A DNA stretch of 64,000 nt from Antedon mediterranea (Eukaryota; Animalia; Echinodermata). This document shows, one piece after another, positions 13,674 through 57,800 of the stretch. Numbering within the stretch: the first letter of the stretch is position 1; every line of letters begins with the position of its first letter. Below the pieces are notes generated by a model. It was not told the origin of the DNA. It did not search any database and saw only the letters and a list, made by a program, of their open reading frames with translations. The stretch covers positions 6,262,001-6,326,000 of the forward strand of contig NC_092674.1 of the NCBI RefSeq assembly GCF_964355755.1. Direction: 5' to 3'. The position numbers and the translations under genes were made by a program.

Positions 13674-13682
13674 GATGAACAT

Positions 13683-30800: not shown

Positions 30801-33800
30801 AGGGTTTTAACTCACGACTCTTTCAACTTCACTCCCTCGAAAAATACTCATTGGATTCTTAAAAATGATGAAATAGATCGAAAAATTTATTCTCAAAATG
30901 TGTCCCTTTATTTGGAGTTCTCTCGTATTAATATCCCTGATATATTTTGAATTAAATTAACATTTGGGCTGGAAAAATGAACTGAGTATATACTGTACCA
31001 TTGTTCATTTGTAAAATCTCGATACTTATTCATTCTGAATCCGGGGTAAAATCGCAACACGCCGTTGGCTGTGCCGATATAACGTGTTGCAACATTATCA
31101 TTGTTCACATCACTCAACCATGTATCATCTATTAAATGAGTGATAAAAACCTCATCTCTGATACCATCCTGAAATGAAGATACAATCTTTCAATAAATCA
31201 TAAAAAATCAAATCATTTTTTTAATGAACAAACAAGAATTGAGGCAGATATGAGAATCAAAGTGATTCCATTTCAAAAAGTTACACAAGCATTTTTGCTT
31301 GTTGTACAAAAAAATTCCTTTAGGGACACTATGGGGACATTCTTATGATGGGGACAATTCCTTGTGAAATGAATGTTCAATTATGGCTAACTCCTATCAA
31401 AGCGACACTTCTAATAAGGATACATTTTGTCTCGAAGGGGTCGTCAGTGGTTCTACTGTAGTTTTAAAACATTTTTCTGTAAAATCTGGTATTCTATTCG
31501 GAATGTGTTTTTAATGGTAACAATGAATTTGGGACCTTGTAGACCCCGAAAAAAGTCTGGTTTTGGGAGAGTTTCCGGTTTTCAGAAAGTCTGGTATTGG
31601 GAGATTTGACTGTAGTTATTTTCAAGCTGCTAATTCCATTTTTCAGGGGTCTACTACTCAAACCCCTCAAGCTCCTGATATTCATTATGAGCGTTTCCCA
31701 ATAACAATTTGAGTAATCTCCAGTCTCTCACTAAATGTGCCATTTTTCCCCCGATTGTTATAGATATACTATATATAGATTGTTCATAATATGGCATTTT
31801 CCACAATGTACACATAAGAGCCTGGCATACTCATTTAGCGTTCAATACTATGCACTATTTAACGATCATTAAATAGTACTTTTTTTCCTTTTTTTTTCAC
31901 ATACTGAAATATTTGTAATGTTCAATGGGATACATATAGATTCAAGTATTATTTATAATGGCCTTATATGAAAATACTTACTGTCGGTGGCATAATCACC
32001 TAGGTGATTGCATGCTACTATTCCACTGGGTTTCCATATATCAATCCGATGGTACACAAATGGGTTTCCTAAAATCAAAAAAGATTCTCAGCTGAAAGTT
32101 GCGTAAAGAAATATGGCACAAAAAATTTGATATTCGGAACACCATAGAAAAGATAAAAAAGTAGTGAAATATTTGCGCATGATTAATTTCTGTTCTTAGT
32201 GTTTTCAGTCTTCCAACATTAAGCTTCCCACAATTTGTTTAGGGCTTACCAACCACAATTGTGCACTTCCCTTTGCTTTAACTACTATACTACAGCGTTG
32301 AATCACCGGTTCTCGTCAGATCACCAAAGTTAAGCAATGTTGGGCCCAGTTGCATTCTGGATGGGAAACCGTCTGGAATCACGGCGGGTGCTGTATTACC
32401 GGAGAGTGATGGAATGATAATATCACACTAGCATGTGATAGGCAAGGGTTCGAGCCTATCTGTACCATACCAACTGTATCCTTAGGCAAGATGCTTTGCT
32501 CTCATTGCTTAAAGCCATTGGTCATGTATACATAGTGCACGTTAAAGGACTTGGTACACTATTCGCAAATAGTAGGGGATCGTCTCCCGGTGTGCTGATC
32601 TGGCTGGCTGCTGCCATTGGTCCACGGAGGGCCTAATCTGAATTTCCTCAGTTCCTCAGTTTGTTTGAGAACAAAATATAAATACCTTACATTGATTAGA
32701 ATATGACAAACACTCACCAGTTATCTCTTGTCTAAAAAGTTGAGCTATGTCCTCTTCAACCAAGGCCAACACTGCTACAAGTGTTGTGCCTTCAACCTTT
32801 ATTAGGATGTAAAAATATGTAGATTGTAATATACGTGGGTGATTGCTGTATTAGGATAGAAAATGAACTAAATAAAGGTGGTGGCACCATCCACATTAAT
32901 CTTAATAACTTAACTTAATGAAAAATAATCTGGCGCTGGGTTGTCAAAGGCGGGTGTGTAGAAAGCGACGACCTCGAATTGGACGACCCCAACGACCCGG
33001 GCGACCTCGAATTGGACGACCTAGAATTGGACGACCCATAACACGAAACCGACGACCCCTATAATAGCCTAGCCTAGCCTAGGCCTAAGTATGGTATAAC
33101 ATCCCGAAGCCGAACATAACCAAAGATCTTTAAACCATACCTTATATAATACTCGCAAGCAAGCAATTGATTGAAAAAAATACAGAAATATCGCCATTTG
33201 ACAGGTATAGTATGTAGTTGTTTTTTGATAACAGAGAACTATCACTTATGCCATCCTCGTATATAATTAATTTCGTACGGAAAATACATTTAATTGATTA
33301 TATCATTAGATAGAGTATCATTCTTAGAATTAATTGTCAGTAATATATATAATTTTTTAAATGTTAGGGATATATTTTAAAATAACTATAAATAGATATA
33401 TAATTACACAAACTCAAGATGTTCTTTTCTGCCTGAAACCTAGGCCGAGGAGGGAGCTATATATCCAATACCAAATTGGCGAGTAAATCATGTTTTACTT
33501 TAAATTAAATTTATACGCTCTTCCACAAGGTCAATTGTTAGTTATACATACAGACTATATTAAAACAATGATTTTGAACACGTAGGGCATTTCTTTGAAT
33601 TCTTTCCTATTGTCGTTTTGTGGTAATTTACAGCTTTTTATATGTTTAACAAACGTACATAATCAATTGCGTCTGCATCATGCTAGACTACAACTTCCGG
33701 TAGTGACGTAATCAGCATATTTTTGGTAATAAAACTTTTTCACTAAGCTAGGGAATCTTCTGATATCAATATTCATTAGACCGTACTTTAGTTAGCCAAT

Positions 33801-36800
33801 CAAAATAAACGTATAAACAATTTTGCGGCGATGTTGTTGAGGTAAAATATACTGTGTTTTACAATAACCAATTTGGTTAGAGTAAAACACAATGATAAAG
33901 AATAGGAAACATTTAATAATATGATAAATGTCATTACATAGCAATTTATCACTGTGTTTTACTATAACCAATTTGGTTAGAGTAAAACACAATGATATAG
34001 AATAGGCAACATTTAATAATACGATAAATGACATTTACATAGCAATTTAGCACTGTGTTTTACTATAAACAATTTGGTCAAAGTAAAGCAGAATGATAAA
34101 GAATAGGAATTTAATAATATGATATATGACATTTACATAGCAATTTAGCACTGTGTTTTACTATAACCAATTTGGTTAGAGTAAAACACAATGATAAAGA
34201 ATAGGAAACATTTAATAATATGATATATGACATTCACATAGCAATTTAGCACTGTGTTTTACTATAACCAATTTGGTTAGAGTAAAACACAATGATATAG
34301 AATAGGAAACATTTAATAATTTGATAAATGACATTTACATAGCAATTTGCACTGTGTTTTACTATAACCAATTTGGTTAAAGTAAAACACAATGATAAAG
34401 AATAGGAAACACTTAATAATATGATAAATGACATTCACATAGCAATTTAGCACTGTGTTTTACTATAACCAATTTGGTTAGAGTAAAACACAATGATATA
34501 GAATAGGAAACATTTAATAATTTGATAAATGACATTTACATAGCAATTTGCACTGTGTTTTACTATAACCAATTTGGTTAAAGTAAAACACAATGATAAA
34601 GAATAGGAAACACTTAATAATATGATAAATGACATTTACATAGCAATTTAGCACTGTGTTTTACTATAACCAATTTGGTTAAAGTAAAGCAGAATGATAA
34701 AGAATAGGAATTTAATAATATGATATATGACATTTACATAGCAATTTAGCACTGTGTTTTACTATAACCAATTTGGTTAGAGTAAAACACAATGATAAAG
34801 ATTAGGAAATATTTAATAATAATGATTATTTACATAGCAATTTAGCACTGTGTTTTACTATAACCAATTTGGTTATAGTAAAACACAATGATATAGAATA
34901 GGAAACATTTAATAATATGATAAATGACATTTACATAGCAATTTATCACTGTGTTTTACTATAACCAATTTGGTTAGAGTAAAACACAATGATAAAGAAT
35001 AGGAAACATTTAATAGTAATGATTATTTACATAGCAATTTAGCACTGTGTTTTACTATAACCAATTTGGTTATAGTAAAACACAATGATAAAGAATAGGA
35101 AACATTTAATAATATGATATATGACATTCACATAGCAATTTAGCACTGTGTTTTACTATAACCAATTTGGTTAGAGTAAAACACAATGATATAGAATAGG
35201 AAACATTTAATAATTTGATAAATGACATTTACATAGCAATTTAGCACTGTGTTTTACTATAAACAATTTGGTTAAAGTAAAGCAGAATGATAAAGAATAG
35301 GAATTTAATAATATGATATATGACATTTACATAGCAATTTAGCACTGTGTTTTACTATAACCAATTTGGTTAGAGTAAAACACAATGATAAAGAATAGGA
35401 AACATTTAATAATATGACATATGACATTCACATAGTAATTTAGCACTGTGTTTTACTATAACCAATTTGGTTAGAGTAAAACACAATGATATAGAATAGG
35501 AAACATTTAATAATTTGATAAATGACATTTACATAGCAATTAGCACTGTGTTTTACTATAACCAATTTGGTTAAAGTAAAACACAATGATAAAGAATAGG
35601 AAACACTTAATAATATGATAAATGACATTTACATAGCAATTTAGCACTGTGTTTTACTATAACCAATTTGGTTAAAGTAAAGCAGAATGATAAAGAATAG
35701 GAATTTAATAATATGATATATGACATTTACATAGCAATTTAGCACTGTGTTTTACTATAACCAATTTGGTTAGAGTAAAACACAATGATAAAGATTAGGA
35801 AATATTTAATAATAATGATTATTTACATAGCAATTTAGCACTGTGTTTTACTATAACCAATTTGGTTATAGTAAAACACAATGATATAGAATAGGAAACA
35901 TTTAATAATATGATAAATGACATTTACATAGCAATTTATCACTGTGTTTTACTATAACCAATTTGGTTAGAGTAAAACACAATGATAAAGAATAGGAAAC
36001 ATTTAATAATAATGATTATTTACATAGCAATTTAGCACTGTGTTTTACTATAACCAATTTGGTTAGAGTAAAACACAATGATAAAGATTAGGAAATATTT
36101 AATAATAATGATTATTTACATAGCAATTTAGCACTGTGTTTTACTATAACCAATTTGGTTATAGTAAAACACAATGATATAGAATAGGAAACATTTAATA
36201 ATATGATAAATGACATTTACATAGCAATTTATCACTGTGTTTTACTATAACCAATTTGGTTAGAGTAAAACACAATGATAAAGAATAGGAAACATTTAAT
36301 AATAATGATTATTTACATAGCAATTTAGCACTGTGTTTTACTATAACCAATTTGGTTATAGTAAAACACAATGATAAAGAATAGGAAACATTTAATAATA
36401 TGATATATGACATTCACATAGCAATTTAGCACTGTGTTTTACTATAACCAATTTGGTTAGAGTAAAACACAATGATATAGAATAGGAAACATTTAATAAT
36501 TTGATAAATGACATTTACATAGCAATTTAGCACTGTGTTTTACTATAACCAATTTGGTTAAAGTAAAACACAATGATAAAGAATAGGAAACACTTAATAA
36601 TATGATAAATGACATTTACATAGCAATTTAGCACTGTGTTTTACTATAACCAATTTGGTTAAAGTAAAGCAGAATGATAAAGAATAGGAATTTAATAATA
36701 TGATATATAACATTTACATAGCAATTTAGCACTGTGTTTTACTATAACCAATTTGGTTAAAGTAAAACACAATGATAAAGAATAGGAAACATTTAATAAC

Positions 36801-39800
36801 ATGATAAATGTCATTACATAGCAATTTAGCACTGTGTTTTACTATAACCAATTTGGTTAGAGTAAAACACAATGATAAAGAATAGGAAATATTTAATAAT
36901 AAGGATTATTTACATAGCAATTTAGCACTGTGTTTTACTATAACCAATTTGGTTATAGTAAAACACAATGATATAGAATAGGAAACATTTAATAATATGA
37001 TAAATGACATTTACATAGCAATTTATCACTGTGTTTTACTATAACCAATTTGGTTATGGTAAAGCACAATGATATAGAATAGGAAACATTTAATAATATG
37101 ATAAATGACATTTACATAGCAATTTAGCACTGTGTTTTACTATAACCAATTTGGTTAAAGTAAAACATAATGATAAAGAATAGGAAACATTTAATAATAT
37201 GATAAATGACATTTACATAGCAATTTATCACTGTGTTTTACTATAACCAATTTGGTTATGGTAAAGCACAATGATATAGAATAGGAAACATTTAATAATA
37301 TGATAAATGTCATTACATAGCAATTTAGCACTGTGTTTTACTATAACCAATTTGGTTAGAGTAAAACACAATGACAAAGAATAGGAAACATTTAATAATA
37401 ATGATTATTTACATAGCTAGCAATTTAGCACAATGTTTTACTATAACCAATTTGGTTATGGTAAAGCACAATGATATAGAATAGGAAACATTTAATAATA
37501 TGATAAATGTCATTACATAGCAATTTAGCACTGTGTTTTACTATAACCAATTTGGTTAGAGTAAAACACAATGATAAAGAATGGGAAACATTTTAATAAC
37601 ATGATAAATGACATTCACATAGAAATTTAGCACTGTGTTTTACAATAACCAATTTGATTAGAGTAAAGCACAATGATAAAGAATATGAAACATTCAATAA
37701 TATGATAAATGACATTTACATAGTAATTTATCACTGTCTTTTACTATAACCAATTTGGTTAGAGTAAAACATTTTAACTATGATAAATGATATTTAGCAC
37801 TGTGCTGGATACAGTAAAACACAAATTAAGAATAGGAAACATATAATAATATGATACATTTACATACAAATTTAGTATTGTGTTTTACTATAGCCAATTT
37901 GGTTACAGTAAAACACAATGATAATGAAACATTTATTATATGATATTATTTACATAGCAAAATATTATATTAAACATATCTTATTATCTAAACGTTATGA
38001 AAAGAATAGGATACATATAATGTAATAATATAATAAATACAAGTTACATAGTTTATCATCTTGTTTTACAGAACCAATTTGGTAACACAGTTAAACACAG
38101 TGATAAAGAATAGATACTGTTTTAGGTTATATAACCCTAACCCTAGTTTGAAGCGACATAATAAATTCATCGCGAAAAAGTACGTATCGTATTTAGAAAC
38201 TTTTGAAATTTGTTAGATATGTTTAATAGGTTCTTACGTCTATAAAACAAACAAAAAATATAAATTTCACAAAAAATTCGTGATTTTAATAATTTGCATT
38301 TCTAAAAATGTACACTTATGAAATACCATACATTTTCCAACACATTTTTACTTCATTGATGATTCCCAGAAATCAAAATAAAACAAATTATGATATTTCT
38401 TTTACATTATAGATGTAAGAACCTATATTGAACATGTACCAAATTTCAAACGTTTTTTAAGACGATACGTATATTTTTATCGATGAATTAAGTATGTGAT
38501 CGCTTCAAACTAGGGTTAGGGTTAAATAACCTAACAGTTCCATTCTTTAACACTGTGTTTAACTTGTAACCAAATTGGTTTTAGTACAACACAATGATAA
38601 ACTATGTACATTTTATTTTTCATATTACATTATAGGATACATATAATGTAATAATAATAAATACAAGTTACATAGTTTATCATCTTGTTTTACAGAACCA
38701 ATTTGGTTACACAGTTAAACACAATGATAAAGAATAGACACTGTTTTAGGTTATATAACTCTAACCTTAGTTTGAAGCGATCACATACTTAATTCATCGC
38801 GAAAAAATACGTATCGTATTCAGAAACATTTGAAATTTGGTAAATATGTTCAATAGGTTCTTACGTCTATAAAACAAACAAAAAATAAAAGTTTCAAGAC
38901 AAATTCGTGATTTTAATAATTTGCATTTCTAAACATTTACACTTATGAAAGACAATACATTTCCAACACATTTTTACTTCATTGATGATTCTCAGAAATC
39001 AAAATAAAACTATTAGGATATTTCTTTTGCATTTTAGATGTAAGAACCTATATTGAACATATCTACCAAATATCAAACGTTTTTCAAGACGATACGTATT
39101 TTTAGCGATGAATATTAAATATGTGATCGCTTCAAACTAGGGTTAGGGTTAAATAAACTAAAACAGTTCTATTCTTTATCACTCACTGTGTTTAACTTTT
39201 AACCAAAATGGTTATAGTAAAACACAATGATAAACTTATATGTCAATTTTATTTTTCATAACATAAAATGTTTGATATTCTTTATAATATTTAATATTAT
39301 ATTTTAGGCCTACTATTAATGACGTATAAATGCACACTACATCTGAAATAACTTTCTACTTCATTGGCGATTCTTACCAAAAAAAAAGAACTAATTTTGT
39401 TATGTATATAGAGCAACCTATTATAACATGTCTTGTATGATTTTTATCTCGTTTCAATGACATTTTATACTACAATTCAAATGAAAAAGCATCACAAAAA
39501 AATACGTCTGGTATTCAAAAAGTTTCTAAACTCGGTACACAGAAAAAAGGAAATATTGAAAATGTATGGTCTTTCATAAGTGTGAATTTTTAGAAATGCA
39601 AATAATGGAAATCATCGATTTGTCTTGAAATTTATAATTTGTTTTGTCTTATTGAACATATCTATACAAAATGTCAAACGTTTCTGAATACGATACGTTT
39701 TTTTTCTCGATGAATTTATAATGTCGCTTCAAACTAGAGGGTAGGGTAGTAACCTAACAAGTATCTATTCTTTATCACTATGTTTAACTGTGTAACCATA

Positions 39801-42800
39801 TTGGTTCTAATAAAAAACAATGATAAACTATGTAAATTGTATGTTTCATATAATTACATTTTTTCAAAAAAAAAATTATTGGGAATGTCAAATTTCTTTT
39901 TCATGACATATATCTACAAATTTCAGAAGCTTTTGAGTACGAGTATTTTACGCGATGTTTTTTTATCCTCATTTTAATATTTTGGTAATGTAATTCACAT
40001 AAAGTATTATATCCAAAAATTGTTTATTCTTGGGTAGAAATGAGGAAATAAATAGTATTCCTGTATAATATAATAATCAATAATAAAGTATAAAAAAAAA
40101 TGTTGTGTAAACGAACGTTTTTTACGCTTCGAATTTTCTGTTACATTATGTTTGGATTGAAGCTACAGATATTGAATCATGGACCTATAAATTAGTAATT
40201 TATAGGTCCATGATTGAACATATCGTCACTCACCACACATTTTTTGTTTTGTATTTCGAAAGTATTTATTCTAAAGAACAATTGATGCAAACATCAACTG
40301 CGTATCTTATTTCATTAATTAATTATATTAATTATAATTTGGCGATTATTCGTCACACGAAGAGTCGAATATCGATTCGTCTCGTCATGAGAAGAAAACG
40401 TGCATTGCGCACACTGTTTACGCGCCTCAACAATAAACGGCGAATATGCGATTCGTCACTTATGGAACGCCGTTTTACACAAGTTTTTGGCGATGATAAA
40501 AATTGCATCGATGATGAAATTGCGTCGATGAAAATTGCATCGACGCAATGTAGATTGCGTCGATGCAATGTAGATTGCGTCGACGCAATTTACATTGCGT
40601 CGATGAAAATTGCATCGATGAAAATTGCGTCGATGAAAATTGCGTCGATGAAAACTGCATCGATGAAAATTGCGTCGATGAAAACTGCATCGATGAAAAT
40701 TGATGTGATGAATTTAATTGATTATGAAAATTCCAAATGGTTTTAATTCAATCAATGATGAAAATGACTACTAGTAAAGTAAATGATGATGTTAATAATG
40801 ATGTTAATAATGTTATTATGTTGCTAAAAATTGACGGTTTCTGAATATTTTGATATGATAAACATGTTTACCGCTTGCGCTAGCGCGCGTTATAGACAAG
40901 CGCACAGTGATCGCGCACTAAAACAATGTTGAAATATATGCACTGATTAACATTTTAGTGATTTATTGTCAACACATTTTAGCAATGGATCCATTATTGT
41001 CCTTTCGGACACATTATATCTTCTAGCTAATTGCTTCCGTTAATCCACCAGTTCAGTACATAAAATCCAGATGTCCAGCATCCATGACATCATATTCAAA
41101 TCATACCGGCAGGGAGATCGCAATTTTCATCGATGAAAACTGCATCGATGAAAATTTTTTTTTTTTTTCATCGATGCAGTTTTCATCGATGCAGTTTTCA
41201 TCGACGCAATTTTCATCGACGCAATTTTCATCACATTAACGCAATTTTCATTACATCGACGCAATTTTCATCGACGCAATGTTCATCACATCATTACATC
41301 AATACTATATTCATCGACGCAATTTTCATCACATCGACGCAATTTTCATTGCATCATTGACGCAATTTTATCATCGCCTAAACTGGCATTCCATACTAAT
41401 TGCGTGTGATCTGATTGGTGTATTATAAATAAATTCATCGCGATGAAATTTTCAGTAGATGTAATGAGACAGTTCAGTAGATGTAATGACAGTTAATTTA
41501 ATTGTTCTGCTCTTTTTGTACAAATCTATACTACTTTATATTATGGATTTTGTAGTACTGTTAAAATTATTAAATCTCTGGAAGTGTGTTTTACGAGTAT
41601 GTCCGCAAATTTATGCGTTTACGGTTTTAAAATGTGAGTTTTAAATAGCGAACATGATCTTGTTAGGTGCACTACGCACGCAGTATTCCAAAATGTCTTA
41701 CTAATTGGGAGAAAATCATATTGTATCATATCATATTATATCCATTCTTTAAATTCATATTCTTTATCCAAAACTAAATTGGTATAGTAAAACACAGTGC
41801 TAGCAATTTATCATATTATTAAATGTTTCATATTCTTTATCATTGTGTTTTACCCTAATCAAATTGGTATAGTAAAACACAGTGCTAAATTGCTATGTGA
41901 ATGTCATTTATCATATTTTTAAATGTTTCCTATTCTTTATCATTGTGCTTTACCATAACCAAATTGGTTATAGTAAAACACAGTGCTAAATTGCTATGTA
42001 AATGTTATATATCATATTATTAAATTCCTATTCTTTATCATTGTGTTTTACTCTAACCAAATTGGTTATAGTAAAACACAGTGATAAATTGCTATGTAAA
42101 TGTAATTTATCATATTATTAAATGTTTCCTATTCTTTATCATTGTGTTTTACTCTAACCAAATTGGTTATAGTAAAACACAGTGATAAATTGCTATGTAA
42201 ATGTAATTTATCATGTTATTAAATGTTTCCTATTCTTTATCGTTGAGTTTTACTCTAATCAAATTGGTTATAGTAAAACACAGTGCTAAATTGCTATGTA
42301 AATGTTATATATCATATTATTAAATGTTTCCTATTCTTTATCATTGTGTTTTACTCTAATCTGATTGGTTATAGTAAAACACAGTGCTAAATTGCTATGT
42401 GAATGTCATTTATCATGTTATTAAATGTTTCTTATTCTTTATCATTGTGTTTTACTCTAACCAAATTGGTTATAGTAAAACACAGTGATAAATTGCTATG
42501 TAAATGTAATTTATCATATTATTAAATGTTTCCTATTCTTTATCATTGTGTTTTACTCTAACCAAATTGGTTATAGTAAAACACAGTGATAAATTGCTAT
42601 GTAAATGTAATTTATCATGTTATTAAATGTTTCCTATTCTTTATCGTTGTGTTTTACTCTAATCAAATTGGTTATAGTAAAACACAGTGCTAAATTGCTA
42701 TGTAAATGTTATATATCATATTATTAAATGTTTCCTATTCTTTATCATTGTGTTTTACTCTAATCTGATTGGTTATAGTAAAACACAGTGCTAAATTGCT

Positions 42801-45800
42801 ATGTGAATGTCATTTATCATGTTATTAAATGTTTCCTATTCTTTATCATTGTGCTTTACTCTAACCAAATTGGTTATAGTAAAACACAGTGCTAAATTGC
42901 TAAATGTCATTTATCATGTTATTAAATGTTTCTTATTCTTTATCATTGTGTTTTACTCTAACCAAATTGGTTATAGTAAAACACAGTGCTAAATTGCTAT
43001 GTAAATGTAATTTATCATATTATTAAATGTTTCCTATTCTTTATCATTGTGTTTTACTCTAACCAAATTGGTTATAATTTATTTAATTTCATTTCAAAAG
43101 ACATTTACCTAAATTGCTATTTAAATGTCATTTATCAAATTATTAAATGTTTTCTATTATTTATCTGGTTATATAGTAAAACACTGTGCTAAATTGCTAT
43201 TGTATTAAGGACGAGTTCCGAGAAGATGTATTCAAAGCTACAACCAATCAGAACAGTGTTAATCAATATAGTCCATGGCTACAGCCAATCAGAAACGTCC
43301 AAATCGCAATAACCCCTAGGCTAATAGAAATTATTGGTCCGAGTAGCCTTTTCAACCAGACGTTGCGAGGTTTAAAAAGTAAAACATGATTTACTCGCCA
43401 ATTTGGTATAGTTTATATACCTGGAGGAGGAGGAGGCCTCCTCCTCTCCTCAGCTCTCTGCTCTCACTTCGTTCGTTTCGCTACCTGATCCGTGCAGGCC
43501 TAGGCCTAGGCTAGACTGGATATTATGATTGCAAGCCAAAAAGGTAGATTTAGAAGCATATTTTATTGATTACCCATCATCAGTGTCACCCTTAAACAGA
43601 TAGTTAAGCTATATTTGTAGGTCATAGCTTATTTCAGACAATATTTTAGCCTCCAAAAAGGGCAGATTAGGCCTAGGCCTAGTAGGCCTAGCCTAGGCCT
43701 AGGTAGAGGGCAGGCCTATAGGCTAGCCTAGTCTAGGCCTAGCTGGCTAGCTAGGGCCTAGCCTAGGCCTAGTTAGGCTAGCAACTCTATACTCTAGCTA
43801 ATAGTTTAGGCCTAAAAACTAGGTAGGCCTAGTACTACTAGGCCTACTATATGGCTAGCCTTGTCTAGCTAGGCCTAGAAATAGAAAGATCTAGCCTAGC
43901 TAGAGTAGTAGGCTAGGCTAGTAGGCCCACCTGGTTAGGCCCTACTAGGGAACTTGTAGGCTAGCTAGCTAGGCCTACTTACTAGCTAATAAGTAGCTAG
44001 GCCTAGGCTGCCTAACTAGCTAGCTCTATGTATTCTAGTTAGGGCCTAGACTAGTTTATTAGGCCTTAGTTTAGGCTGATTAGGCCTGCCTAGTCCTAGT
44101 TAAATAAATAGGCATATAACCAGGCTCAGTCTAAACACTCTAGGCCTATCTATATGAGACCTGTGCTATTAATTATAGGCCTAGGGCCTTGCTAGCTAGC
44201 CAGCAGAATGGTCTAGAGAGGCATAGGCCTAGCTAGGGATAGGCTGGGGGGTCATAGACAGCCTATCTATATAAAATATTAGATAGGTAGGTAGGAGTAT
44301 TAAGATTCATCAGTGTGTAAGTTGATTTCATTGCTAATGCCAAGGTATTAGGCCTGTTTATTTTCAGGTTGAAAGCAATGGATAAACAGAGATTCAATTC
44401 TACAACAAAAGAGACAAAAGTCAAACTCAAACTGATAATTAACAATGTTTCCAGTTAAATTAATGTTAATTATTTTAATAGATTGTAGTGACCCTAACTA
44501 CCTTACTGTTTGTGTATGGCTGTAATATTATATTAAATGTCATCACAATTAGTAAGGTTGTGAGGCTTCACAATTTCAAACAACTCTTGTGTCTCTTCTT
44601 CATGTGGATGGATTAAAAAATACTGTGAGTATTGTACACTCTTTATATGAATATATCATCAATCACAATATCAAATATGATCCGTGTAGTAACAATTTGA
44701 TAACTTAGCATGCATCTTATAATATCTACATCATCAATAATTAATATTAATATAAATCTACATCACAATGTTGGATATGATCTTTGTAGTCAAAATTTGA
44801 TAACTGAGCACACATCTTTTAATAACTACCTTATCAATAACTATTAATAATGTCCTATATCACATTGTTGGATATGATCAGTGTTAGTCATAATTTGATA
44901 ACTGAGCACGCATCTTTTAATATCTACCTCATCAATAATTAATATTAATAATCTATATTGCATTGTTCAATATGATCAGTGTAGTCATAATATGATAACT
45001 GAGCATGCATCTTTTAATATCTACCTTATCAATGACTATTAATAATATCCTATATCACAATGTTGGATATGATTAGTGTAGTCATAATTTGATAACTGAG
45101 CATACATCTTTAGAATTACTTTTATTTAAGTATATAAAAGAATAATCTATAATTTACAATGTTTTATATGTTGTTAATTCATCAGATATTATCTATTGAA
45201 CTGATATGGTTTTGTTTATTACAGTATAGTACATACAGCACTTTATGTTATGTTATGTTATTTATTTATTATTCAACATTTTTTGTTTGGTTTTTGACGT
45301 TATCAAATTTTTATTTTCTTTTAAGTTCTGTTATTTATTTGTTAATTTTGTAGCTTAAGTTAGTTAAGATAAAAGGTACCAAGCTTGATTAGCTTCGGCT
45401 ATACCTTGGCTACCTTTTGTATTGAAATTGTTTTTGTTTGATACAATAAAGAAGAAGAATTAATAATCTATATTACACTGTTGGATATGATCTGTTTGGT
45501 TTTTTAATATCTACCTTATCAATAACTATTAATAATATCCTATATCACAATGTTGGATATGATCAGTGTAGTCATAGTTTGATAACTGAGCATGCATCTT
45601 TAATATCTACCTCATCAATAATTATTATTAATAATCTATATCACAATGTTGGATATGATTAGTGTAGTCATAATTTGATAACTGAGCACGCATCTTTCAA
45701 TATCTATTTCATCAATAATTATTATTAATAATCTATATCACATAGTTGGATATGATCAGTGTAGTCATAAATTGATAACTGAGCAAAAATCTTTTAATAT

Positions 45801-48800
45801 CTGCATCATCATTAATTAATATTAATAATCTATATCAAACTGTTGGATATGATCTGTTTAGTTTTTTAATATCTATCTTTTCCATAACTATTAATAATAT
45901 TCTATATCACAATTTTGGATATGATCAGTGTAATCATAGTTTGAACTACCTCAACAATAATTAATATTAATTGTCTATATACCAATATCAAATATGATCA
46001 GTGTAGGCCTAGTCATTTGATAACTGAGCATGCATCATTTTATATCTGCTTCAAATATTAATATTGTCTTAATATAATAAGTGGTTTGAAGGATGTTTGC
46101 AGATGGCCTTTTTTGCATTGTAAAGTTCAATTTATCCAAAAGGTCAAATTTTGACCTATTTCAATAAAATCATTTCATAAGTTGTCTTCTTTTATAGTTT
46201 TAGTGATAATCAATATTAAGTGGTTTTTTACCCCAAAAATGTCAAACCTAGAGCTATTTAATAATAAAATGATTTTATAAATTGTCTTCTTTTATATTTC
46301 TAGTAGTGGTATAATCAGTATTCAATTGTTTGAATGATGTTTGTGGGGTATTTTTTAATTAAGTTTACGCAGTTTACATGGTAAAATCTGTCAATTATCC
46401 AAAATTGACATTTTTCACTCCTAAAAAAATCTTAGAGCCATTTCAATAAAATTATTTCATAAATTGTCCTCTTTTTATGGTTCTAATAAGGATATAATCA
46501 AAGTGGTTTGGATGATGTTTGTGGGGTGTTTTTTAAAAGTTTGCACAGTTTACATGGTAAAATGTGTCAATTTATTCCTAGAGCTATTTCAATAAAATTA
46601 TTTCATAATCACCCCAAAAATGTCAAACCTAGAACATTTTAATAAAATGATTTCATAAATTGTCTTCTTTTATAGTTCTAGTAGTGGTATAATCAGTATT
46701 CAATTGTTTGAATGATGTTTGTGGGGTATTTTTTAATTAAGTTTACGCAGTTTACATGGTAAAATCTGTCAATTATCCAAAATTGACATTTTTCACTCCT
46801 AAAAAAATCTTAGAGCCATTTCAATAAAACTATTTCATAAATTGTCCTCTTTTATAGTTCTAATAATGATATAATCAATATTAAGTGGTTTGGATGATGT
46901 TTGTGGGGTGTTTTTTAAAAGTTTGCACAGTTTACATGGTAAAATGTGTCAATTTATACCTAGAACTATTTTAATAAAATGATTTCATAAATTGTCCTCT
47001 TTTATAGTTCTAGTAGTGGTATAATCAATATTAAGTTGTTTGGATGATGTATGTGGGGTGTTTTTTTAAAGTTTGCACAGTTTACATGGTAAAATCTGTC
47101 AATTTATCCAAAGTTTACATTTTTCACCCTAAAAAATCAAACCTAGAGCTATTTCAATGAAATTATTTCATAAATTGTCCTCTTTTATAGTTCTTGTAGT
47201 GGTATAATCAATATTAAGTTGTTTGGATGATGTTTGTGGGTGTTTTTTTAAAGTTTGCATTAAGTTTACGCAGTTTAAATGGTAAAATCTGTAAATTTAT
47301 CCAAAATTGACATTTTTCACCCTAAAAAGTCAAACTTCAGAGCTATTTCAATAAATTGATTTCAAAAATTCTCTTCTTTTACAGTTCTAGTAGTGATATA
47401 ATCAATATTAAGTTGTTTGGATGATGTTTGTGGGGTGTTTTTGTTAAGTTAGCATTAAGTTTACGCAGTTTACATGGCAAAATCTGTAAATTTATCCAAA
47501 ATTGACATTTTTTACCCTAAAAATTCAAACCAGAGCTATTTCAATAAAATTATTTCATAAACTGTCCTCTTTTATAGTTCTAGTAGTGGTATAATCAATA
47601 TTAAGTTGTTTGGATGATGTTTGTGGGTGTTTTTTTAAAGTTTGCATTAAGTTTACGCAGTTTACATGGTAAAATCTGTAAATTTATCCAAAATTGACAT
47701 TTTTTACCCTAAAAATTCAAACCTAGAGCTATTTCAATAAAATTATTTCATAAATTGTCCTCTTTTATAGTTCTAGTAGTGGTATACTCAATATTAAGTG
47801 GTTTGGATGATGTTTGTGGGGTGTTTTTTTAAAGTTTGCACAGTTTACATGGCAAAATCTGTAAATTTATCCAAAATTGACATCTTTTACCCTAAAAATT
47901 CAAACCTAGAGCTATTTCAATGAAATTATTTCATAAATTGTCCTCTTTTATAGTTCTTGTAGTGGTATAATCAATATCAAGTTGTTTGGATGATGTTTGT
48001 GGGTGTTTTTTTAAAGTTTGCATTAAGTTTATGCAGTTTAAATGGTAAAATCTGTAAATTTATCCAAAATTGACATTTTTCACCCTAAAAAGTCAAACTT
48101 AGAGCTATTTCAATAAATTGATTTCAAAAATTCTCTTCTTTTGCAGTTCTAGTAGTGATATAATCAATATTAAGTTGTTTGAATGATGTTTGTGGGGTGT
48201 TTTTGTTAAGTTAGCATTAAGTTTACGCAGTTTACATGGCAAAATCTGTAAATTTATCCAAAATTGACATTTTTTACCCTAAAAATTCAAACCAGAGCTA
48301 TTTCAATAAAATTATTTCATAAACTGTCCTCTTTTATAGTTCTAGTAGTGGTATAATCAATATTAAGTTGTTTGGATGATGTTTGTGGGTGTTTTTTTAA
48401 AGTTTGCATTAAGTTTACGCAGTTTACATGGTAAAATCTGTAAATTTATCCAAAATTGACATTTTTTACCCTAAAAATTCAAACCTAGAGCTATTTCAAT
48501 AAAATTATTTCATAAATTGTCCTCTTTTATAGTTCTAGTAGTGGTATACTCAATATTAAGTGGTTTGGATGATGTTTGTGGGGTGTTTTTTTAAAGTTTG
48601 CACAGTTTACATGGCAAAATCTGTAAATTTATCCAAAATTGACATCTTTTACCCTAAAAATTCAAACCTAGAGCTATTTCAATGAAATTATTTCATAAAT
48701 TGTCCTCTTTTATAGTTCTTGTAGTGGTATAATCAATATCAAGTTGTTTGGATGATGTTTGTGGGTGTTTTTTTAAAGTTTGCATTAAGTTTATGCAGTT

Positions 48801-51800
48801 TAAATGGTAAAATCTGTAAATTTATCCAAAATTGACATTTTTCACCCTAAAAAGTCAAACTTAGAGCTATTTCAATAAATTGATTTCAAAAATTCTCTTC
48901 TTTTGCAGTTCTAGTAGTGATATAATCAATATTAAGTTGTTTGAATGATGTTTGTGGGGTGTTTTTGTTAAGTTAGCATTAAGTTTACGCAGTTTACATG
49001 GCAAAATCTGTAAATTTATCCAAAATTGACATTTTTTACCCTAAAAATTCAAACCAGAGCTATTTCAATAAAATTATTTCATAAACTGTCCTCTTTTATA
49101 GTTCTAGTAGTGGTATAATCAATATTAAGTTGTTTGGATGATGTTTGTGGGTGTTTTTTTAAAGTTTGCATTAAGTTTACGCAGTTTACATGGTAAAATC
49201 TGTAAATTTATCCAAAATTGACATTTTTTACCCTAAAAATTCAAACCTAGAGCTATTTCAATAAAATTATTTCATAAATTGTCCTCTTTTATAGTTCTAG
49301 TAGTGGTATACTCAATATTAAGTGGTTTGGATGATGTTTGTGGGGTGTTTTTTTAAAGTTTGCACAGTTTACATGGCAAAATCTGTAAATTTATCCAAAA
49401 TTGACATCTTTTACCCTAAAAATTCAAACCTAGAGCTATTTCAATGAAATTATTTCATAAATTGTCCTCTTTTATAGTTCTTGTAGTGGTATAATCAATA
49501 TTAAGTTGTTTGGATGATGTTTGTGGGTGTTTTTTTAAAGTTTGCATTAAGTTTACGCAGTTTAAATGGTAAAATCTGTAAATTTATCCAAAATTGACAT
49601 TTTTCACCCTAAAAAGTCAAACTTCAAAGCTATTTCAATAAATTGATTTCAAAAATTCTCTTCTTTTACAGTTCTAGTAGTGATATAATCAATATTAAGT
49701 TGTTTGAATGATGTTTGTGGGGTGTTTTTGTTAAGTTAGCATTAAGTTTACACAGTTTACATGGCAAAATCTGTAAATTTATCCAAAATTGACATTTTTT
49801 ACCCTAAAAATTCAAACCAGAGCTATTTCAATAAAATTATTTCATAAATTGTCCTCTTTTATAGTTCTAGTAGTGGTATAATCAATATTAAGTTGTTTGG
49901 ATGATGTTTGTGGGTTTTTTTTTAAAGTTTGCATTAAGTTTACGCAGTTTACATGGTAAAATCTGTAAATTTATCCAAAATTGACATTTTTTACCCTAAA
50001 AATTCAAACCTAGAGCTATTTCAATAAAATTATTTCATAAATTGTCCTCTTTTATAGTTCTAGTAGTGGTATACTCAATATTAAGTGGTTTGGATGATGT
50101 TTGTGGGGTGTTTTTTTAAAGTTTGCACAGTTTACATGGCAAAATCTGTAAATTTATCCAAAATTGACATCTTTTACCCTAAAAATTCAAACCTAGAGCT
50201 ATTTCAATGAAATTATTTCATAAATTGTCCTCTTTTATAGTTCTTGTAGTGGTATAATCAATATTAAGTTGTTTGGATGATGTTTGTGGGTGTTTTTTTA
50301 AAGTTTGCATTAAGTTTACGCAGTTTAAATAGTAAAATCTGTAAATTTATCCAAAATTGACATTTTAAAACACAAACTAGGTTGTAAAAAGTGAAGGAAG
50401 TCATTATATTTTAATATTGTTTGGTAATAAAGATGCCTATCATAGTCAAATGGCAATAACTGATTAGCCGAGACCAATGACATTTAAAACAACTCCTACT
50501 TAAAATTCCCTACTTATACAGTACAGCAGCTTTTTGATTGGCTGCAAGTTTAGTTTTCTGTTCGTTCATCAGAAATGGTATAAATAATTATTAATCAATA
50601 AGATTACTGGATTTCTTTAGTATTTCTGACACATTTCAAATCTTAATTGAATTATTAATGTAATGGAAATTTGTCATAGGCCTATTATAGCAACATATCA
50701 TTTCTGGAAGAGTATTACGGTCTGAATAGATCGATGTTAAAACACACGTCCTCATTTATCAAATTATTCATTCACTGCACATTTATTCTGTTAAGAAGAA
50801 CTGGGACCCTCAATAGAAGCCAAAGCATGTCTCATGATGGCCCCTACAATACATATCAAACATAAAAAGATATGGAATATTTTTATTTTTACAACGGCAC
50901 ACGTTCATCATAAACGATGCGTTCTTAAAAGTATAAATTTAAACAGCAAACGGATACAAATCAATAGGGTAATTAGGAACAAAAGAATAACACATTTTCA
51001 AAACCCATCGACTCGATCTCTTGTATACAGTGAATCTAACAAAATCACACTGATCATATCCAACATTAAGTATTAATAATTATTATTGATTAGGTAGATA
51101 TTAAAAGATGCGTTATAACAAATTATGAATATACAGATCATATCCAACAATGTGACATAGATTATTAATAATAATTATTGATGAGGTAGATATTTAAAGA
51201 TGCGTGCTCAGTTATCAAATTATGACTACACTGATTATATCCAACAATGTGATATAAGATATTAATAATAATTATTGATGAGGTAGATATTGAAAGATGC
51301 GTGCTCAGTTATCAAATTATGACTACACTGATCATATCCCACAATGTGATATAGATTATTATTAATAATTATTGATGATGTAGATATTGAAAGATGCGTA
51401 CTCAGTTATCAAATTCTGACTACACTGATCATATCCAACAATGTGATATAAGATATTAATAATAATTATTGATGAGGTAGATATTCAAAGATGCGTGCTC
51501 AGTTATCAAATTATGACTACACTGATCATATCCCACAATGTGATATAGATTATTATTAATAATTATTGATGATGTAGATATTTAAAGATGCGTGCTCAGT
51601 TATCAAATTATGACTACACTGATCATTTCCAACAATGTGATATAAGATCTTAATAATAATTATTGATGAGGTAGATATTTAAAGATGCGTGCTCAGTTAT
51701 CAAATTATGACTACACTGATCATATCCAACAATGTGATTTAGATTATTAACATTAATTATTGATGAGGTAGATATTAAAAGATGCGTGCTCAGTTATCAA

Positions 51801-54800
51801 ATTATGACTACACTGATCATATCAAACAATGTGCTATAGATTATTAATAATAATTATTGATGAGGTAAACATTTAAAGATGCGTGCTCAGTTATCAAATT
51901 ATGACTACACTGATCATATCCAACAATGTGATATAAGATATTAATAATAATTATTGATGAGGTAGATATTAAAAGATGCGTGCTCAGTTATCAAATTCTG
52001 ACTACAATGATCATATCGAACAATGTGATATATGATATTATTAATAATTATTGATTAGGTGGATATTTAAAGATGCGTGCTCAGTTATCAAATTATGACT
52101 ACACTGCCACAATGTGATATAGATTATTATTAATAATTATTGATGATGTAGATATTTAAAGATGCGTGCTCAGTTATCAAATTATGACTACACTGATCAT
52201 ATCCAACAATGTGATATAAGATCTTAATAATAATTATTGATGAGGTAGATATTAAAAGATGCGTGCTCAGTAATCAAATTATGACTACACTGATTATATC
52301 CAACAATGTGATATAGATTATTAATAATAATTATTGATGAGGTAGATATTTAAAGATGCGTGCTCAGTTATCAAATTATGACTACACTGATCATATCCAA
52401 CAATGTGATTTAGATTATTAACATTAATTATTGATGAGGTAGATATTAAAAGATGCGTGCTCAGTTATCAATTAATTATGACTACACTGATCATATCAAA
52501 CAATGTGCTATAGATTATTAATAATAATTATTGATGAGGTAAACATTTAAAGATGCGTGCTCAGTTATCAAATTATGACTACACTGATCATATCCAACAA
52601 TGTGATATAAGATATTAATAATAATTATTGATGAGGTAGATATTAAAAGATGCGTGCTCAGTTATCAAATTCTGACTACAATGATCATATCGAACAATGT
52701 GATATATGATATTATTAATAATTATTGATTAGGTGGATATTTAAAGATGCGTGCTCAGTTATCAAATTATGACTACACTGATCATATCCAAAAATGTGAT
52801 ATAGATTATTATTAATAATTATTGATGCTGTAGATATTTAAAGATGCGTGCTCAGTTATCAAATTATGACTACACTGATCATATCAAACAATGTGCTATA
52901 GATTATTAATAATAATTATTGATGAGGTAGATATTAAAAGATGCGTGCTCAGTTATCAAAATATGACTACACTGATTATATCCAACAATGTGATATAGAT
53001 TATTAATAATAATGATTGATGCTGTAGATATTTAAAGATGCGTGCTCAGTTATCAAATTCTGACTACACTGATCATATCCAACAATGTGATATAAGATAT
53101 TAATAATAATTATTGATGAGGTAGATATTAAAAGATGCGTGCTCAGTTATCAAATTATGACTACACTGATCATATCCCACAATGTGATATAGATTATTAT
53201 TAATAATTATTGATGATGTAGATATTTAAAGATGCGTGCTCAGTTATCAAATTATGACTACACTGATCATATCAAACAATGAGATATAAGATATTAATAA
53301 TAATTATTGATGAGGTAGATATTAAAAGATGCGTGCTCAGTAATCAAATTATGACTACACTGATTATATCCAACAATGTGATATAGATTATTAATAATAA
53401 TTATTGATGAGGTAGATATTTAAAGATGCGTGCTCAGTTATCAAATTATGACTACACTGATCATATCCAACAATGTGATTTAGATTATTAACATTAATTA
53501 TTGAAGAGGTAGATATTAAAAGATGCGTGCTCAGTTATCAAATTATGACTACACTGATCATATCAAACAATGTGCTATAGATTATTAATAATAATTATTG
53601 ATGAGGTAAACATTTAAAGATGCGTGCTCAGTTATCAAATTATGACTACACTGATCATATCCAACAATGTGATATAAGATATTAATAATAATTATTGATG
53701 AGGTAGATATTAAAAGATGCGTGCTCAGTTATCAAATTCTGACTACACTGATCATATCGAACAATGTGATATATGATATTATTAATAATTATTGATTAGG
53801 TGGATATTTAAAGATGCGTTCTCAGTTATCAAATTATGACTACACTGATCATATCCAAAAATGTGATATGGATTATTATTAATAATTATTGATGATGTAG
53901 ATATTTAAAGATGCGTGCTCAGTTATCAAATTATGACTACACTGATCATATCAAACAATGTGCTATAGATTATTAATAATAATTATTGATGAGGTAGATA
54001 TTAAAAGATGCGTGCTCAGTTATCAAATTATGACTACACTGATTATATCCAACAATGTGATATAGATTATTAATAATAATTATTGATGAGGTAAGATATT
54101 TAAAGATGCGTGCTCAGTTATCAAATTCTGACTACACTGATCATATCCAACAATGTGATATAAGATATTAATAATAATTATTGATAAGGTAGATATTAAA
54201 AGATGCGTGCTCAGTTATCAAATTATGACTACATTGATCATATCCCAAAATGTGATATAGATTATTATTAATAATTATTGATGAGGTAAACATTTAAAGA
54301 TGCGTGCTCAGTTATCAAATTATGACTACACTGATCATATCCAACAATGTGATATAAGATATTAATAATAATTATTGATGAGGTAGATATTAAAAGATGC
54401 GTGCTCAGTTATCAAATTCTGACTACACTGATCATATCGAACAATGTGATATATGATATTATTAATAATTTTTGATTAGGTGGATATTTAAAGATGCGTG
54501 CTCAGTTATCAAATTATGACTACACTGATCATATCCAAAAATGTGATATGGATTATTATTAATAATTATTGATGATGTAGATATTTAAAGATGCGTGCTC
54601 AGTTATCAAATTATGACTACACTGATCATATCAAACAATGTGCTATAGATTATTAATAATAATTATTGATGAGGTAGATATTAAAAGATGCGTGCTCAGT
54701 TATCAAATTATGACTACACTGATTATATCCAACAATGTGATATAGATTATTAATAATAATTATTGATGAGGTAAGATATTTAAAGATGCGTGCTCAGTTA

Positions 54801-57800
54801 TCAAATTCTGACTACACTGATCATATCCAACAATGTGATATAAGATATTAATAATAATTATTGATAAGGTAGATATTAAAAGATGCGTGCTCAGTTATCA
54901 AATTATGACTACACTGATCATATCCCAAAATGTGATATAGATTATTATTAATAATTATTGATGATGTAGATATTTAAAGATGCGTGCTCAGTTATCAAAT
55001 TATGACTACACTGATCATATCCAACAATGTGATATAAGATATTAATAATAATTATTGATGAGGTAGATATTAAAAGATGCGTGCTCAGTAATCAAATTAT
55101 GACTACACTGATCATATCCAACAATGTGATTTAGATTATTAACATTAATTATTGATGAGGTAGATATTAAAAGATGCGTGCTCAGTTATCAAATTATGAC
55201 TACACTGATCATATCCAACAATGTGATATAAGATATTAATATTAATTATTGATGAGGTAGATATTAAAAGATGCGTGCTCAGTTATCAAATTCTGACTAC
55301 ACTGATCATATCGCACAATGTGATATATTAGTAATAATTATTGATGAGGTAGATATTAAAAGATGCGTGCTCAGTTATCAAATTTTGACTACACTGATTA
55401 TATCGAACAATGTGATATAGATTATTAATAATAATTATTGATGAGGTAGATATTAAAAGATGCGTGCTCAGTTATCAAATTCTGACTACACTGATCATAT
55501 CGCACAATGTGATATAGATTATTAGTAATAATTATTGATGAGGTAGATATTAAAAGATGCGTGCTCAGTTATCAAATTTTGACTACACTGATTATATCGA
55601 ACAATGTGATATAGATTATTAATAATAATTATTGATGAGGTAGATATTAAAAGATGCGTGCTCAGTTATCAAATTCTGACTACACTGATCATATCGAACA
55701 ATGTGATATAGATTATTAAAAATAATTATTGATGAGGTAGATATTAAAAGATGCGTGCTCAGTTATCAAATTATGACTACACTGATCATATCCAACAATC
55801 TGATATATGATATCAATGCTAATTATTGATGAGGTAGATATTAAAAGATGCGTGCTCAGTTATCAAATTGTAACTACACTGATCATAATACTATACATAG
55901 TCCTTTATGCATTAGACATTGATTTAGTAGTACTACATATCATTTGTTATATTAAGAATGTTGTTTTAGTGTTATTAAAATACTTATCGAATTTTTTTGA
56001 AAATAAAAATATTAGTATTGGTACCTATAAATTTATATATTATAATAACATGCTAGATGTTATAATAATGTGATCTTTATTACAACTAAGAAACAGTTAT
56101 GTACGAGGATGATACACACTGATAGTTCTCAGTTATCAAAAAACGACTACACAATATAGCTCCATTTGATACTGAATGTGTCGACACGAACAAACGAACA
56201 GATATGGAACGCCAAGAGTGCATCATTAAAACTGCATTCGACTCGATTAGCACACGAAATATCATAAACATGGCAAACCAGGCCCTTTTTCAGCGGCAGG
56301 TAAGGTTTGACCATGGAGGTATATGGTTTGACCAGCTCCATGGTTTGGTAAAAATATTTTATACCTCCATGGTTTGACCGTATACAATGCATGTGTGAAA
56401 TGTAAAGCTTTCTTATGGCCCTCCCCATGCAGGATTAGGCCAAGTTGAGCCGCCGACAAGTTGAGGCGCCGCCAAAAACGTTATTTTCTATGAAACGCCA
56501 AATGCTTACTTTCGCCGGTGCTCGTTTCTATTTAATAGAAGTTCTATTTATATTAATTATTAGATATAACGATGTATATTCCAAAGTTTATATATCACGG
56601 TTTTCAGTATATATTATTAAATATTATAATTAAAGAGAAATAATTATGAATATCTGACTTGTAGATTCCAAAATATAAGGCCTAAAACATGACCGAAAAT
56701 GATCGTTTTTAGCCAAAAATGACGTAAACATGTTGCCCCCTCAGGCGGCAGTTGAAGTAAAATAATTGCATAAAATCACCGTTTTTTAGTAAAATATTTT
56801 GTGTATTAACATTGTAAAATTCAATAAAATATGATATTAAAAGATAGTAAATAAAAAATAATAATTATTTAACCTCATTCGAAGAATATCAATACTCTAT
56901 TAGTCCTGAGAGACAACGTGATTTTACGTGGTAGGCATACACGCGAGAAAAATATTATGGAGTGCACTGCATTTTTACCTTGAAAGATTAAAAACAATTA
57001 AATTATTAAATATGACTACAGTACTTTCCTTTGCTGTTTCAAACCAACAAAATTGTAGTATGTAATTATTATTTATTTTCATGACACAATAAACCTAAAG
57101 ACCATGAACTTATGTAGGGCCTACTAGGACACCACTCTATCACTACGCGAAATGTCGTAAAAGACGCACTGGCCGTTTCATAGAAATTACCGGCGGCTCA
57201 ATTTGTCGGCGGCCCAACCGGTCATATCCCCCCATGCACATGTTACGCTGCTTGGTAGGCCTATAGTGTTCGTTATAAGAAGACGAGATGTAATTATACG
57301 TCCATGGTTTAACCATGTATTGTATAATATTTATTTCTTTTTAATTTATTTTTAATATGTCGAATGCAGTTTTAATGATGCACTCTTGGCGTTCCATATC
57401 TTTTCGTTTGTTCGTGTCGACACAATCAGTATCAAATGGCGATATTTCTGTATTTTTTCAATCAATTGCTTGCTTGCGAGTATTATATAATAAGGTATAG
57501 TTTAAAGATCTTTGGCTATGTTCGGCTTCGGGATGTTATACCACACTTAGGCCTAGGCTAGGCTATAGGGGTCGTCGGTTTCGTGTTATGGGTCGTTCAA
57601 TTCGAGTTCGTTCAATTCGAGGTCGCCCGGGTCGTTGGGGTCGTCCAATTCGAGGTCGTCGCTTTCTACACACCCTGTCAAAGGCCTCTATCAAAAAGTG
57701 GTCAGGTTGAAACCTTACCAACCGTACTGGTTGCTAGAGCCCTGCTCAATAGTTGTATTGGACAGGTCGGTTTTGAGGAGATCTGTAGCTCTTCAGACTC

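What the first reader, a model, noticed from the sequence alone, without database searches (positions are those of the whole stretch)
33203..56160. Satellite B appears to be amplified subterminal sequence of the outer element, forming multi-kb foldback arms
Seen: the left TIR continues (33203-33270) into sequence whose reverse complement matches 56097-56160 (TACGAGGATG...GATAGTTCTCAGTTATCAAAAAACGACTACAC). That segment aligns with the satellite B monomer (GATGAGGTAGAT...GATGCGTGCTCAGTTATCAAATTATGACTACAC). Satellite B arrays lie in opposite orientation (44650-46050 vs 51040-55890) around satellite C. Inferred: the satellite arose from the TIR itself, so this may be a snapshot of satellite genesis from a transposon end, possibly multiplying transposase-binding sites.
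Basis: partly seen in the sequence, partly recalled or inferred. Interest (0 to 1): 0.75.

Follow-up and report, generated by a model that had tools for sequence, protein, structure and literature searches.

The report
Nested foldback transposon carrying end-related satellite
A 23-kb gene-less jumping element sits inside the end of a smaller one and carries two opposed arrays of a 97-base repeat that resembles its own ends, so the repeat likely grew long ago from a copy of that end, a route already described in flies and beetles.

Summary
The satellite-B-like segments (33202-33266, 56097-56162) do not continue the outer TIR. They are the TIRs of a separate 22,961-bp element B (7-bp target duplication) inserted into the left TIR of a 1.76-kb MITE-like element (10-bp duplication). 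Public contigs show the empty site, starts exactly at 33202 and a copy with another flank in a second organism. TIR-monomer homology holds (right 0 of 5000 shuffles, left 1 of 5000; a TIR-only profile puts 57 of 62 non-self hits in the B arrays) but is old, 57-70% identity. The arrays are true arms, yet unequal (4.8 kb against 1.4 kb). The direction TIR-to-satellite and the binding-site idea are not shown; shared sites are not better conserved. Nested element A has the same 7-bp duplication and the same mismatched ends but an unrelated satellite. No transposase was found. The design matches Tetris, Rehavkus and Galileo. This scan already noted two satellite-filled foldback elements elsewhere in this genome. 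New member of a known kind; interest 0.3.

The parts
32942..32951 (+). 10-bp target duplication of host element X, left copy (TGTCAAAGGC)
   Evidence: contigs without X: loose ends before 57676 in 63/62/67/8 contigs of X4/X2/X3/X1
32952..33201 (+). Host element X, outer part of its left TIR, split by element B
   Evidence: 92.5% to 57675-57432 over 253 bp; X1 contig 1 runs from 33150-33201 on into the sequence at 56170
33195..33201 (+). 7-bp target duplication of element B, left copy (CATTTGA)
33202..33266 (+). Left TIR of element B (starts CAGGTATA); holds a decayed satellite-B-like unit on the minus strand
   Evidence: contigs start at 33202 in X2, X3, X4 and X1, the X1 one with another flank
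33267..33453 (+). Left subterminal region of B, conserved in the family; includes A's left 7-bp duplication 33447-33453 (GAGGAGG)
   Evidence: tables 2 and 8
33454..43423 (-). Element A, 9,970 bp, inserted in B in the opposite orientation; ends GAGCTATA / CAGGTATA, TIR about 48 bp, opposed 101-bp satellite A arrays 33851-37771 and 41805-43076
   Evidence: empty site and other flanks
43424..43430 (+). 7-bp target duplication of element A, right copy
   Evidence: the empty-site contigs have one AGG unit fewer than removal of A predicts
43431..44653 (+). Rest of B's left unique region, rich in GGCCTA-type motifs
   Evidence: continuation seen in empty-site contigs of X2, X3, X4 and X1
44654..46062 (-). 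Left satellite B array (9 anchors, broken at about 45114-45457)
   Evidence: 6 full monomers 88-96% to the consensus
46131..50366 (.). Satellite C (183/193-bp units, one orientation), unrelated to B; whether it belongs to the family or is a later insert is open
   Evidence: C against B: 391 and 1148 of 1500 shuffles reach the score
50720..50782 (+). Isolated decayed B-like unit in the middle spacer
   Evidence: E 3.9e-4
51048..55887 (+). Right satellite B array, 49.8 copies of 97 bp, mean 95% to the consensus, with period-7 and period-11 substructure
55888..56096 (+). Right subterminal region of B; 56028-56090 is a second, weak B-like unit
   Evidence: 2 of 3000 shuffles; two family variants in contigs
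56097..56162 (+). Right TIR of element B (reads GAGCTATA from outside); holds the B-like unit
56163..56169 (+). 7-bp target duplication of element B, right copy
56170..57675 (+). Rest of host element X (1,756 bp without B; TIR about 320 bp), highly repeated
   Evidence: depth step at about 56161
57676..57744 (.). X's right 10-bp duplication (57676-57685) within the last 69 bp of another repeat (Z) into which X inserted
   Evidence: loose ends behind 57744 in 61/58/57/6 contigs of X4/X2/X3/X1

Best explanation
33202-56162 is a gene-less foldback-type element with its own 65-bp inverted ends and a 7-bp target duplication, inserted in the left end of a smaller repeat; it is likely moved by a transposase encoded elsewhere, and its 97-bp satellite likely arose long ago by tandem duplication of a piece of its end. 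Shown: the ends, both duplications, the empty sites, a copy with another flank, the opposed arrays with a shared outermost variant, and the homology of end and monomer. Inferred: (1) a segment beginning about 10 bp inside the end was duplicated inward; (2) the inner copies were amplified and homogenised by unequal exchange while the terminal copy kept its own course; (3) the unit was copied to the other arm, giving the foldback; (4) element A later inserted 252 bp inside B's left end; (5) a 7-bp-duplication transposase (P/Galileo-like or hAT-like) moves both A and B by their shared 8-bp ends. The monomers as extra transposase-binding sites are possible but have no support here.
For: Duplications and matching ends for A and B. 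Empty site of B in organism A and contigs starting exactly at 33202. Depth step at 56161 from about 5,000-18,000 to mostly 100,000-330,000 (low bins 12,312 and 52,287) in X4. Left-end and right-end contig depths agree: 204 and 202 in X2, 1010 and 990 in X3, about 20 times single-copy-like contigs (the tool warns that depth is no copy number). End-monomer homology. One variant motif occurs once per strand, in the outermost monomer of each array. No transposase family in 34 frames from inside B or A, or in 10 from X. Precedent: the Tetris flanking domain shares 37 bp at about 80% with its TIR-220 repeat, read there as an origin by duplication (PMC4079207, passages).
Against: The direction is unrooted: the two TIR units group together on a long branch, as capture of old satellite units would also give. 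No identity gradient toward the end. The left TIR alone is weak (E 1.2). Element A's TIR does not significantly match its own satellite (40 to 703 of 3000 shuffles), so the pattern is not replicated. Shared sites are no less often variable (16 of 39 against 27 of 58 right; 20 of 39 against 30 of 58 left). X2-X4 are one sample and may be the window's source. Other flanks for B's right end were not among the rows shown. An 8-bp duplication with a one-base-short right end also fits B alone.
Confidence: 0.6

Rival explanations
1. The satellite came first: an ancestral element took up satellite B units, and the TIR-embedded unit is a decayed outermost monomer later copied to both ends (TIR extension by recruitment, as described for Galileo).
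For: A second weak unit lies in phase just inside the right TIR (2 of 3000 shuffles) and another decayed unit at 50720-50782, so decayed monomers lie around the arrays. Recruitment of internal sequence into TIRs is reported for Galileo (PMC3573991, PMC4168063; passages).
Against: The unit starts about 10 bp from the terminus, where end functions are expected (inference). The left end differs at only 6 of 204 positions in a copy from a second organism. The second unit has no left counterpart (987 of 3000 shuffles).
Confidence: 0.25
2. The likeness is partly chance in AT-rich DNA, or only a short shared protein-binding word of about 13 bp, not descent of the whole monomer.
For: One unrelated AT-rich window scored 50 against the TIR's 49 under simple scoring. 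The left TIR is not significant alone under profile scoring.
Against: Under profile scoring that window falls to E 7.7 while the right TIR has E 1.1e-5. The TIR-only profile hits 57 array places in the orientation expected and nothing else below E 0.33. 39 of 64 block positions match both TIRs.
Confidence: 0.08
3. One reading: one 24.7-kb element whose outer TIR runs on into the B-like segment.
For: The outer TIRs and a 10-bp duplication do enclose the whole region.
Against: The family form of the outer TIR runs on into the 56170 sequence without B (X1 contig). B has its own duplication, ends and a copy with another flank. Depth differs more than tenfold across 56161.
Confidence: 0.05

Closest known systems
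Tetris of Drosophila virilis with TIR-220 (PMC4079207; passages read)
   Same: Gene-less foldback element; TIR with a flanking domain followed by tandem repeats; the flanking domain shares a short stretch with the repeat; arrays expand inside the element.
   Different: Tetris has 8-10-bp duplications and up to 866 bp of homologous flanking domain; B has a 7-bp duplication, only 65 bp of end homology, mismatched terminal bases, unlike subterminal regions and a third satellite in the middle.
Rehavkus elements and TfSat06/TfSat25 of Tribolium (PMC12581902; passages read)
   Same: Inverted termini made of TIRs and variable numbers of subterminal tandem repeats, arrays up to over 11 kb; the binding-site benefit is already proposed there.
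   Different: Rehavkus is filed under MuDR (PMC4455052, passage); B's 7-bp duplication does not fit the 8-10 bp given for Mutator-like foldbacks in PMC4079207.
Galileo and 1360, P superfamily (PMC4168063, PMC3573991, PMC3698922; passages read)
   Same: 7-bp duplications; gene-less two-TIR copies up to 9 kb with tandem repeats and inserted elements in the TIRs; repeat number differs between the two arms.
   Different: No THAP transposase can be linked here; B's and A's two ends differ at positions 1 and 4; target sites do not resemble GTANTAC.
[quoted passage not shown]
   Same: Duplication length; short imperfect TIRs with unlike subterminal regions are typical of hAT (recalled, no call).
   Different: No transposase; I saw no terminal sequences of these families, so no comparison was made.

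Membership tests
Non-autonomous foldback-type TIR transposon (element B) | Terminal inverted repeats | tested here: met
   33202-33266 / 56097-56162, 83.9% over 62 bp
Non-autonomous foldback-type TIR transposon (element B) | Target duplication and empty site | tested here: met
   7 bp; empty site in 1 contig of organism A; 8 bp not excluded from B alone
Non-autonomous foldback-type TIR transposon (element B) | Tandem repeats in opposed arms | tested here: met
   arms unequal and not contiguous with the left TIR
Non-autonomous foldback-type TIR transposon (element B) | Dispersed copies with other flanks | tested here: met
   left end: 1 contig with another flank in X1, contig starts at 33202 in X2-X4; right-end flanks not among the rows shown
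Non-autonomous foldback-type TIR transposon (element B) | No transposase gene | tested here: met
   0 of 44 stop-to-stop frames (40-45 aa or more; 34 in B or A, 10 in X) reach a Pfam cut-off; the arrays, shorter frames, 33202-33850 and 46062-46131 were not scanned
P superfamily (Galileo/1360) | 7-bp target duplication | tested here: met
   A and B; 7 bp for Galileo and 1360
P superfamily (Galileo/1360) | THAP-domain transposase partner with the same ends | not testable with these tools
   no genome held
P superfamily (Galileo/1360) | THAP-binding sites in ends and repeats | tested here: inconclusive
   by eye, a TAAGTG word at 33243-33248 (minus strand) matches the first 6 of 8 bases of two sites listed in PMC3698922; absent from the right TIR and the monomer consensus
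P superfamily (Galileo/1360) | CA...TG termini (recalled, no call) | tested here: not met
   one end reads CA, the other GA, in both A and B
Mutator/Rehavkus/Tetris group | 8-10-bp target duplication | tested here: not met
   7 bp for A and B; met for host X with 10 bp
hAT with 7-bp duplication | hAT transposase partner and matching termini | not testable with these tools
   no genome held; no terminal sequences found
A and B in one superfamily (Repbase rule) | Same duplication length and at most 1 mismatch in positions 1-11 | tested here: not met
   same length; first 8 identical end for end, but 2 mismatches in 11

The most novel reading that the evidence does not exclude
A 7-bp-duplication transposon group with fixed, mismatched ends (CAGGTATA and GAGCTATA) acts as a satellite nursery: each gene-less family grows its own roughly 100-bp satellite from its end, with the long array always at the GAGC end, and one transposase moves them all.
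Probability: 0.15. Interest if true: 0.55.

Novelty: new member of a known kind. Interest (0 to 1): 0.3.

Why it matters
Satellites growing from foldback transposon ends are in print for flies and beetles. This locus adds an example with about 20 copies, two sequence variants at each end and a copy in a second organism, so the direction of origin becomes testable once assemblies are at hand. The detail of most interest is that two families with unrelated satellites share a 7-bp duplication and the same mismatched terminal bases. That points to one mobilising enzyme, unlike the 8-10-bp Mutator-like group to which such elements are usually assigned.

Tried and rejected
No genome is held, so satellite B was not mapped genome-wide. 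Satellite C as a diverged B dimer: rejected (391 and 1148 of 1500 shuffles; half against half 425 of 1500). A related to B: rejected (345 and 1053 of 1500). A's TIR as the seed of satellite A: not significant (4 tests, best 40 of 3000; profile hits E>=2.4 outside the TIRs). Arm homology inward of the TIR: not significant (195 of 5000; 164 of 1000). Better conservation of TIR-shared sites: variable-site tests p 0.68 and 1.0; the mismatch count is significant in the right array only (p 3e-8) but counts inherited changes many times. The 21-base core test (0 and 3 mismatches in the TIRs, at least 6 in the background) used a core chosen after seeing the match and is not relied on. Intron of the sarcoglycan gene: rejected, since its C-terminal exon lies at 19890-20066. 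Rfam: 0 matches in 32900-57800. TIR pattern in metagenome contigs: 0 matches. Earlier scan notes by place near and by sequence: nothing. A paper search for the terminal word with 'transposon' and 'target site duplication' gave 1 paper, on poxviruses, seen as a listing only. PMC12905397, PMC2817418 and PMC12628747 (passages) gave no terminal signatures. X1 holds only 0.05 of the query words; it is used only for the contigs laid.
Full report
Setting. The window is AT-rich animal DNA. A sarcoglycan gene has exons from 16551 to 20066 (Pfam PF04790; 4 of 131 frames scanned, best E 1.2e-26), ending 13 kb before the region, so the region is not in its introns. Earlier scan notes call the genome a feather star; I did not test that. 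No whole genome is held.

The observation. The inverted match 33206-33266 / 56158-56097 is real (83.9% over 62 bp). The right segment scores 49 against the B consensus (0 of 5000 shuffles reach it) and the left 40 (1 of 5000). Simple scoring has an AT-rich background: of 11,490 windows outside the arrays, two other peaks reached 49 or more. Profile scoring separates them: right TIR E 1.1e-5, a decayed unit at 50720 E 3.9e-4, left TIR E 1.2, the AT-rich window E 7.7. The reverse test is the cleanest. A profile from the two TIR copies alone gave 64 hits at E<=10: 2 self, 57 in the B arrays in the expected orientation (15 below E 0.01), and 5 elsewhere at E 0.33 or worse. The homology is real but distant: 61-70% (right TIR) and 57-65% (left TIR) to the 49 right-array units, against 80% between the TIRs and 95% among right-array units.

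What the ends belong to. The outer TIR pair 32952-33201 / 57432-57675 (92.5%) is flanked by a 10-bp duplication. A second inverted match, 56148-56242 / 57359-57452 (93.7%), shows that this TIR is about 320 bp long and is split on the left. The split point carries a 7-bp duplication, 33195-33201 and 56163-56169, and the insert begins CAGGTATA and ends in the complement of GAGCTATA. Public contigs agree. In organism A (run X1) one contig runs through the outer TIR straight into the 56170 sequence with no insert, and another starts at 33202 with a different flank and 6 differences in 204 bases. In X2, X3 and X4 (one sample, possibly the window's source) contigs begin exactly at 33202. Summed depth in X4 steps from about 5,000-18,000 inside 56161 to mostly 100,000-330,000 outside. 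Depths at B's two ends agree (204 and 202 in X2; 1010 and 990 in X3), about 20 times single-copy-like contigs; the tool warns that this is no copy number, and both outputs showed only the best-supported rows. So the outer element X is a highly repeated 1,756-bp element, itself inserted 69 bp from the end of another repeat (about 60 contigs per run of X2-X4 show that site without X). The B-like segments are the TIRs of a separate 22,961-bp element B.

Inside B. Element A (33454-43423, 9,970 bp) lies 252 bp inside B's left end in the opposite orientation. It also has a 7-bp duplication and the same two terminal words; the first 8 bases match end for end, with 2 mismatches in 11. Contigs show its empty site and other flanks; the empty-site contigs have one AGG unit fewer than removal of A predicts, in a slippage-prone tract. 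A carries opposed arrays of a 101-bp satellite unrelated to B. Without A, B is 12,984 bp: left end, 1.4 kb of unique sequence, a left B array (44654-46062, 9 anchors, broken by 345 bp), satellite C (unrelated to B), a spacer, the right B array (49.8 copies) and 275 bp of right end. One variant motif occurs once per strand, in the outermost monomer of each array, which shows that the arrays are matching arms. Only the right arm is multi-kb; the best inverted alignment is 442 bp at 89%. None of 44 frames scanned from B, A and X reached a Pfam cut-off, and Rfam gave 0 matches.

Mechanism. B and A are most likely non-autonomous cut-and-paste elements moved in trans (inference from ends, duplications, empty sites and dispersed copies). 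The monomer most likely arose by inward duplication of a piece of B's end and later amplification, with the terminal copy going its own way. This step is inferred. The TIR units form a long branch with no outgroup, identity shows no gradient toward the end (rho -0.08, p 0.58), and a second weak unit inside the right TIR (2 of 3000; no left counterpart, 987 of 3000) fits capture of old monomers as well. A's TIR does not significantly match satellite A, so the pattern is not replicated. The 39 sites shared with both TIRs are variable as often as the other 58 (16 against 27 right; 20 against 30 left), so the binding-site idea has no support here.

Comparison with what is known. Tetris has the same design, including a 37-bp, about 80% match between flanking domain and repeat, read as origin by duplication with a proposed binding-site benefit (PMC4079207, passages). 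Tribolium Rehavkus elements carry satellite arms of over 11 kb (PMC12581902, passages). Galileo makes 7-bp duplications and has gene-less copies up to 9 kb with tandem repeats in the TIRs (PMC4168063, PMC3573991, PMC3698922; passages). Repbase lists hAT families with 7-bp duplications (PMC4455052, passage). B works like these foldback elements. It fails the 8-10-bp test for the Mutator-like group and cannot be placed in P or hAT without a transposase. I found no description of these termini in searches, nor of crinoid satellites in one search (listings only); the library lacks most subscription journals and Repbase Reports, and no supplements were read. Two earlier scan notes describe other satellite-filled foldback elements in this genome; I did not check them.

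Verdict. It is a new member of a known kind, interest 0.3. The shared mismatched ends and 7-bp duplications of A and B are the lead most worth following.

Noticed in passing
window 33454-43423 and 33202-56162: In both A and B the longer satellite array adjoins the GAGCTATA end (3.9 against 1.3 kb; 4.8 against 1.4 kb). Two cases only.
   Followed up: partly
window 38006-39860: Inside A, three or four roughly 620-bp units in direct and inverted order (80-90% alike), each holding a satellite-A-like piece.
   Followed up: no
window 40485-41382: Small foldback of opposed 15-bp tandem repeats inside A; its 211-aa frame has no Pfam family.
   Followed up: partly
window 56430-57245: Contigs of X1, X2 and X3 skip 813 bp here with 12 other letters between, and the stretch has weak inverted ends: likely a further insert or variable middle in X.
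   Followed up: no
window 5471-9063: Array of 71/89-bp hairpin-containing units with higher-order periods 285-444, related to short palindromic repeats at 3700-5470.
   Followed up: no
window 16551-20066: Sarcoglycan gene, at least four exon-bearing frames on the plus strand.
   Followed up: partly
window 22018-22256, 22350-22693, 22829-23504: A 240-bp palindrome (89%), an 82-bp array (4.2 copies) and a 56-bp array (12.1 copies, 99% alike) side by side.
   Followed up: no
window 28975-29230 and 32290-32620: Two copies of a dispersed repeat whose start looks 5S-rRNA-like by eye (recalled likeness, not tested; outside the Rfam scan range).
   Followed up: no
window 51048-55887: Monomers 7 and 11 apart are more alike (0.944) than others (0.91-0.93), a higher-order structure.
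   Followed up: partly
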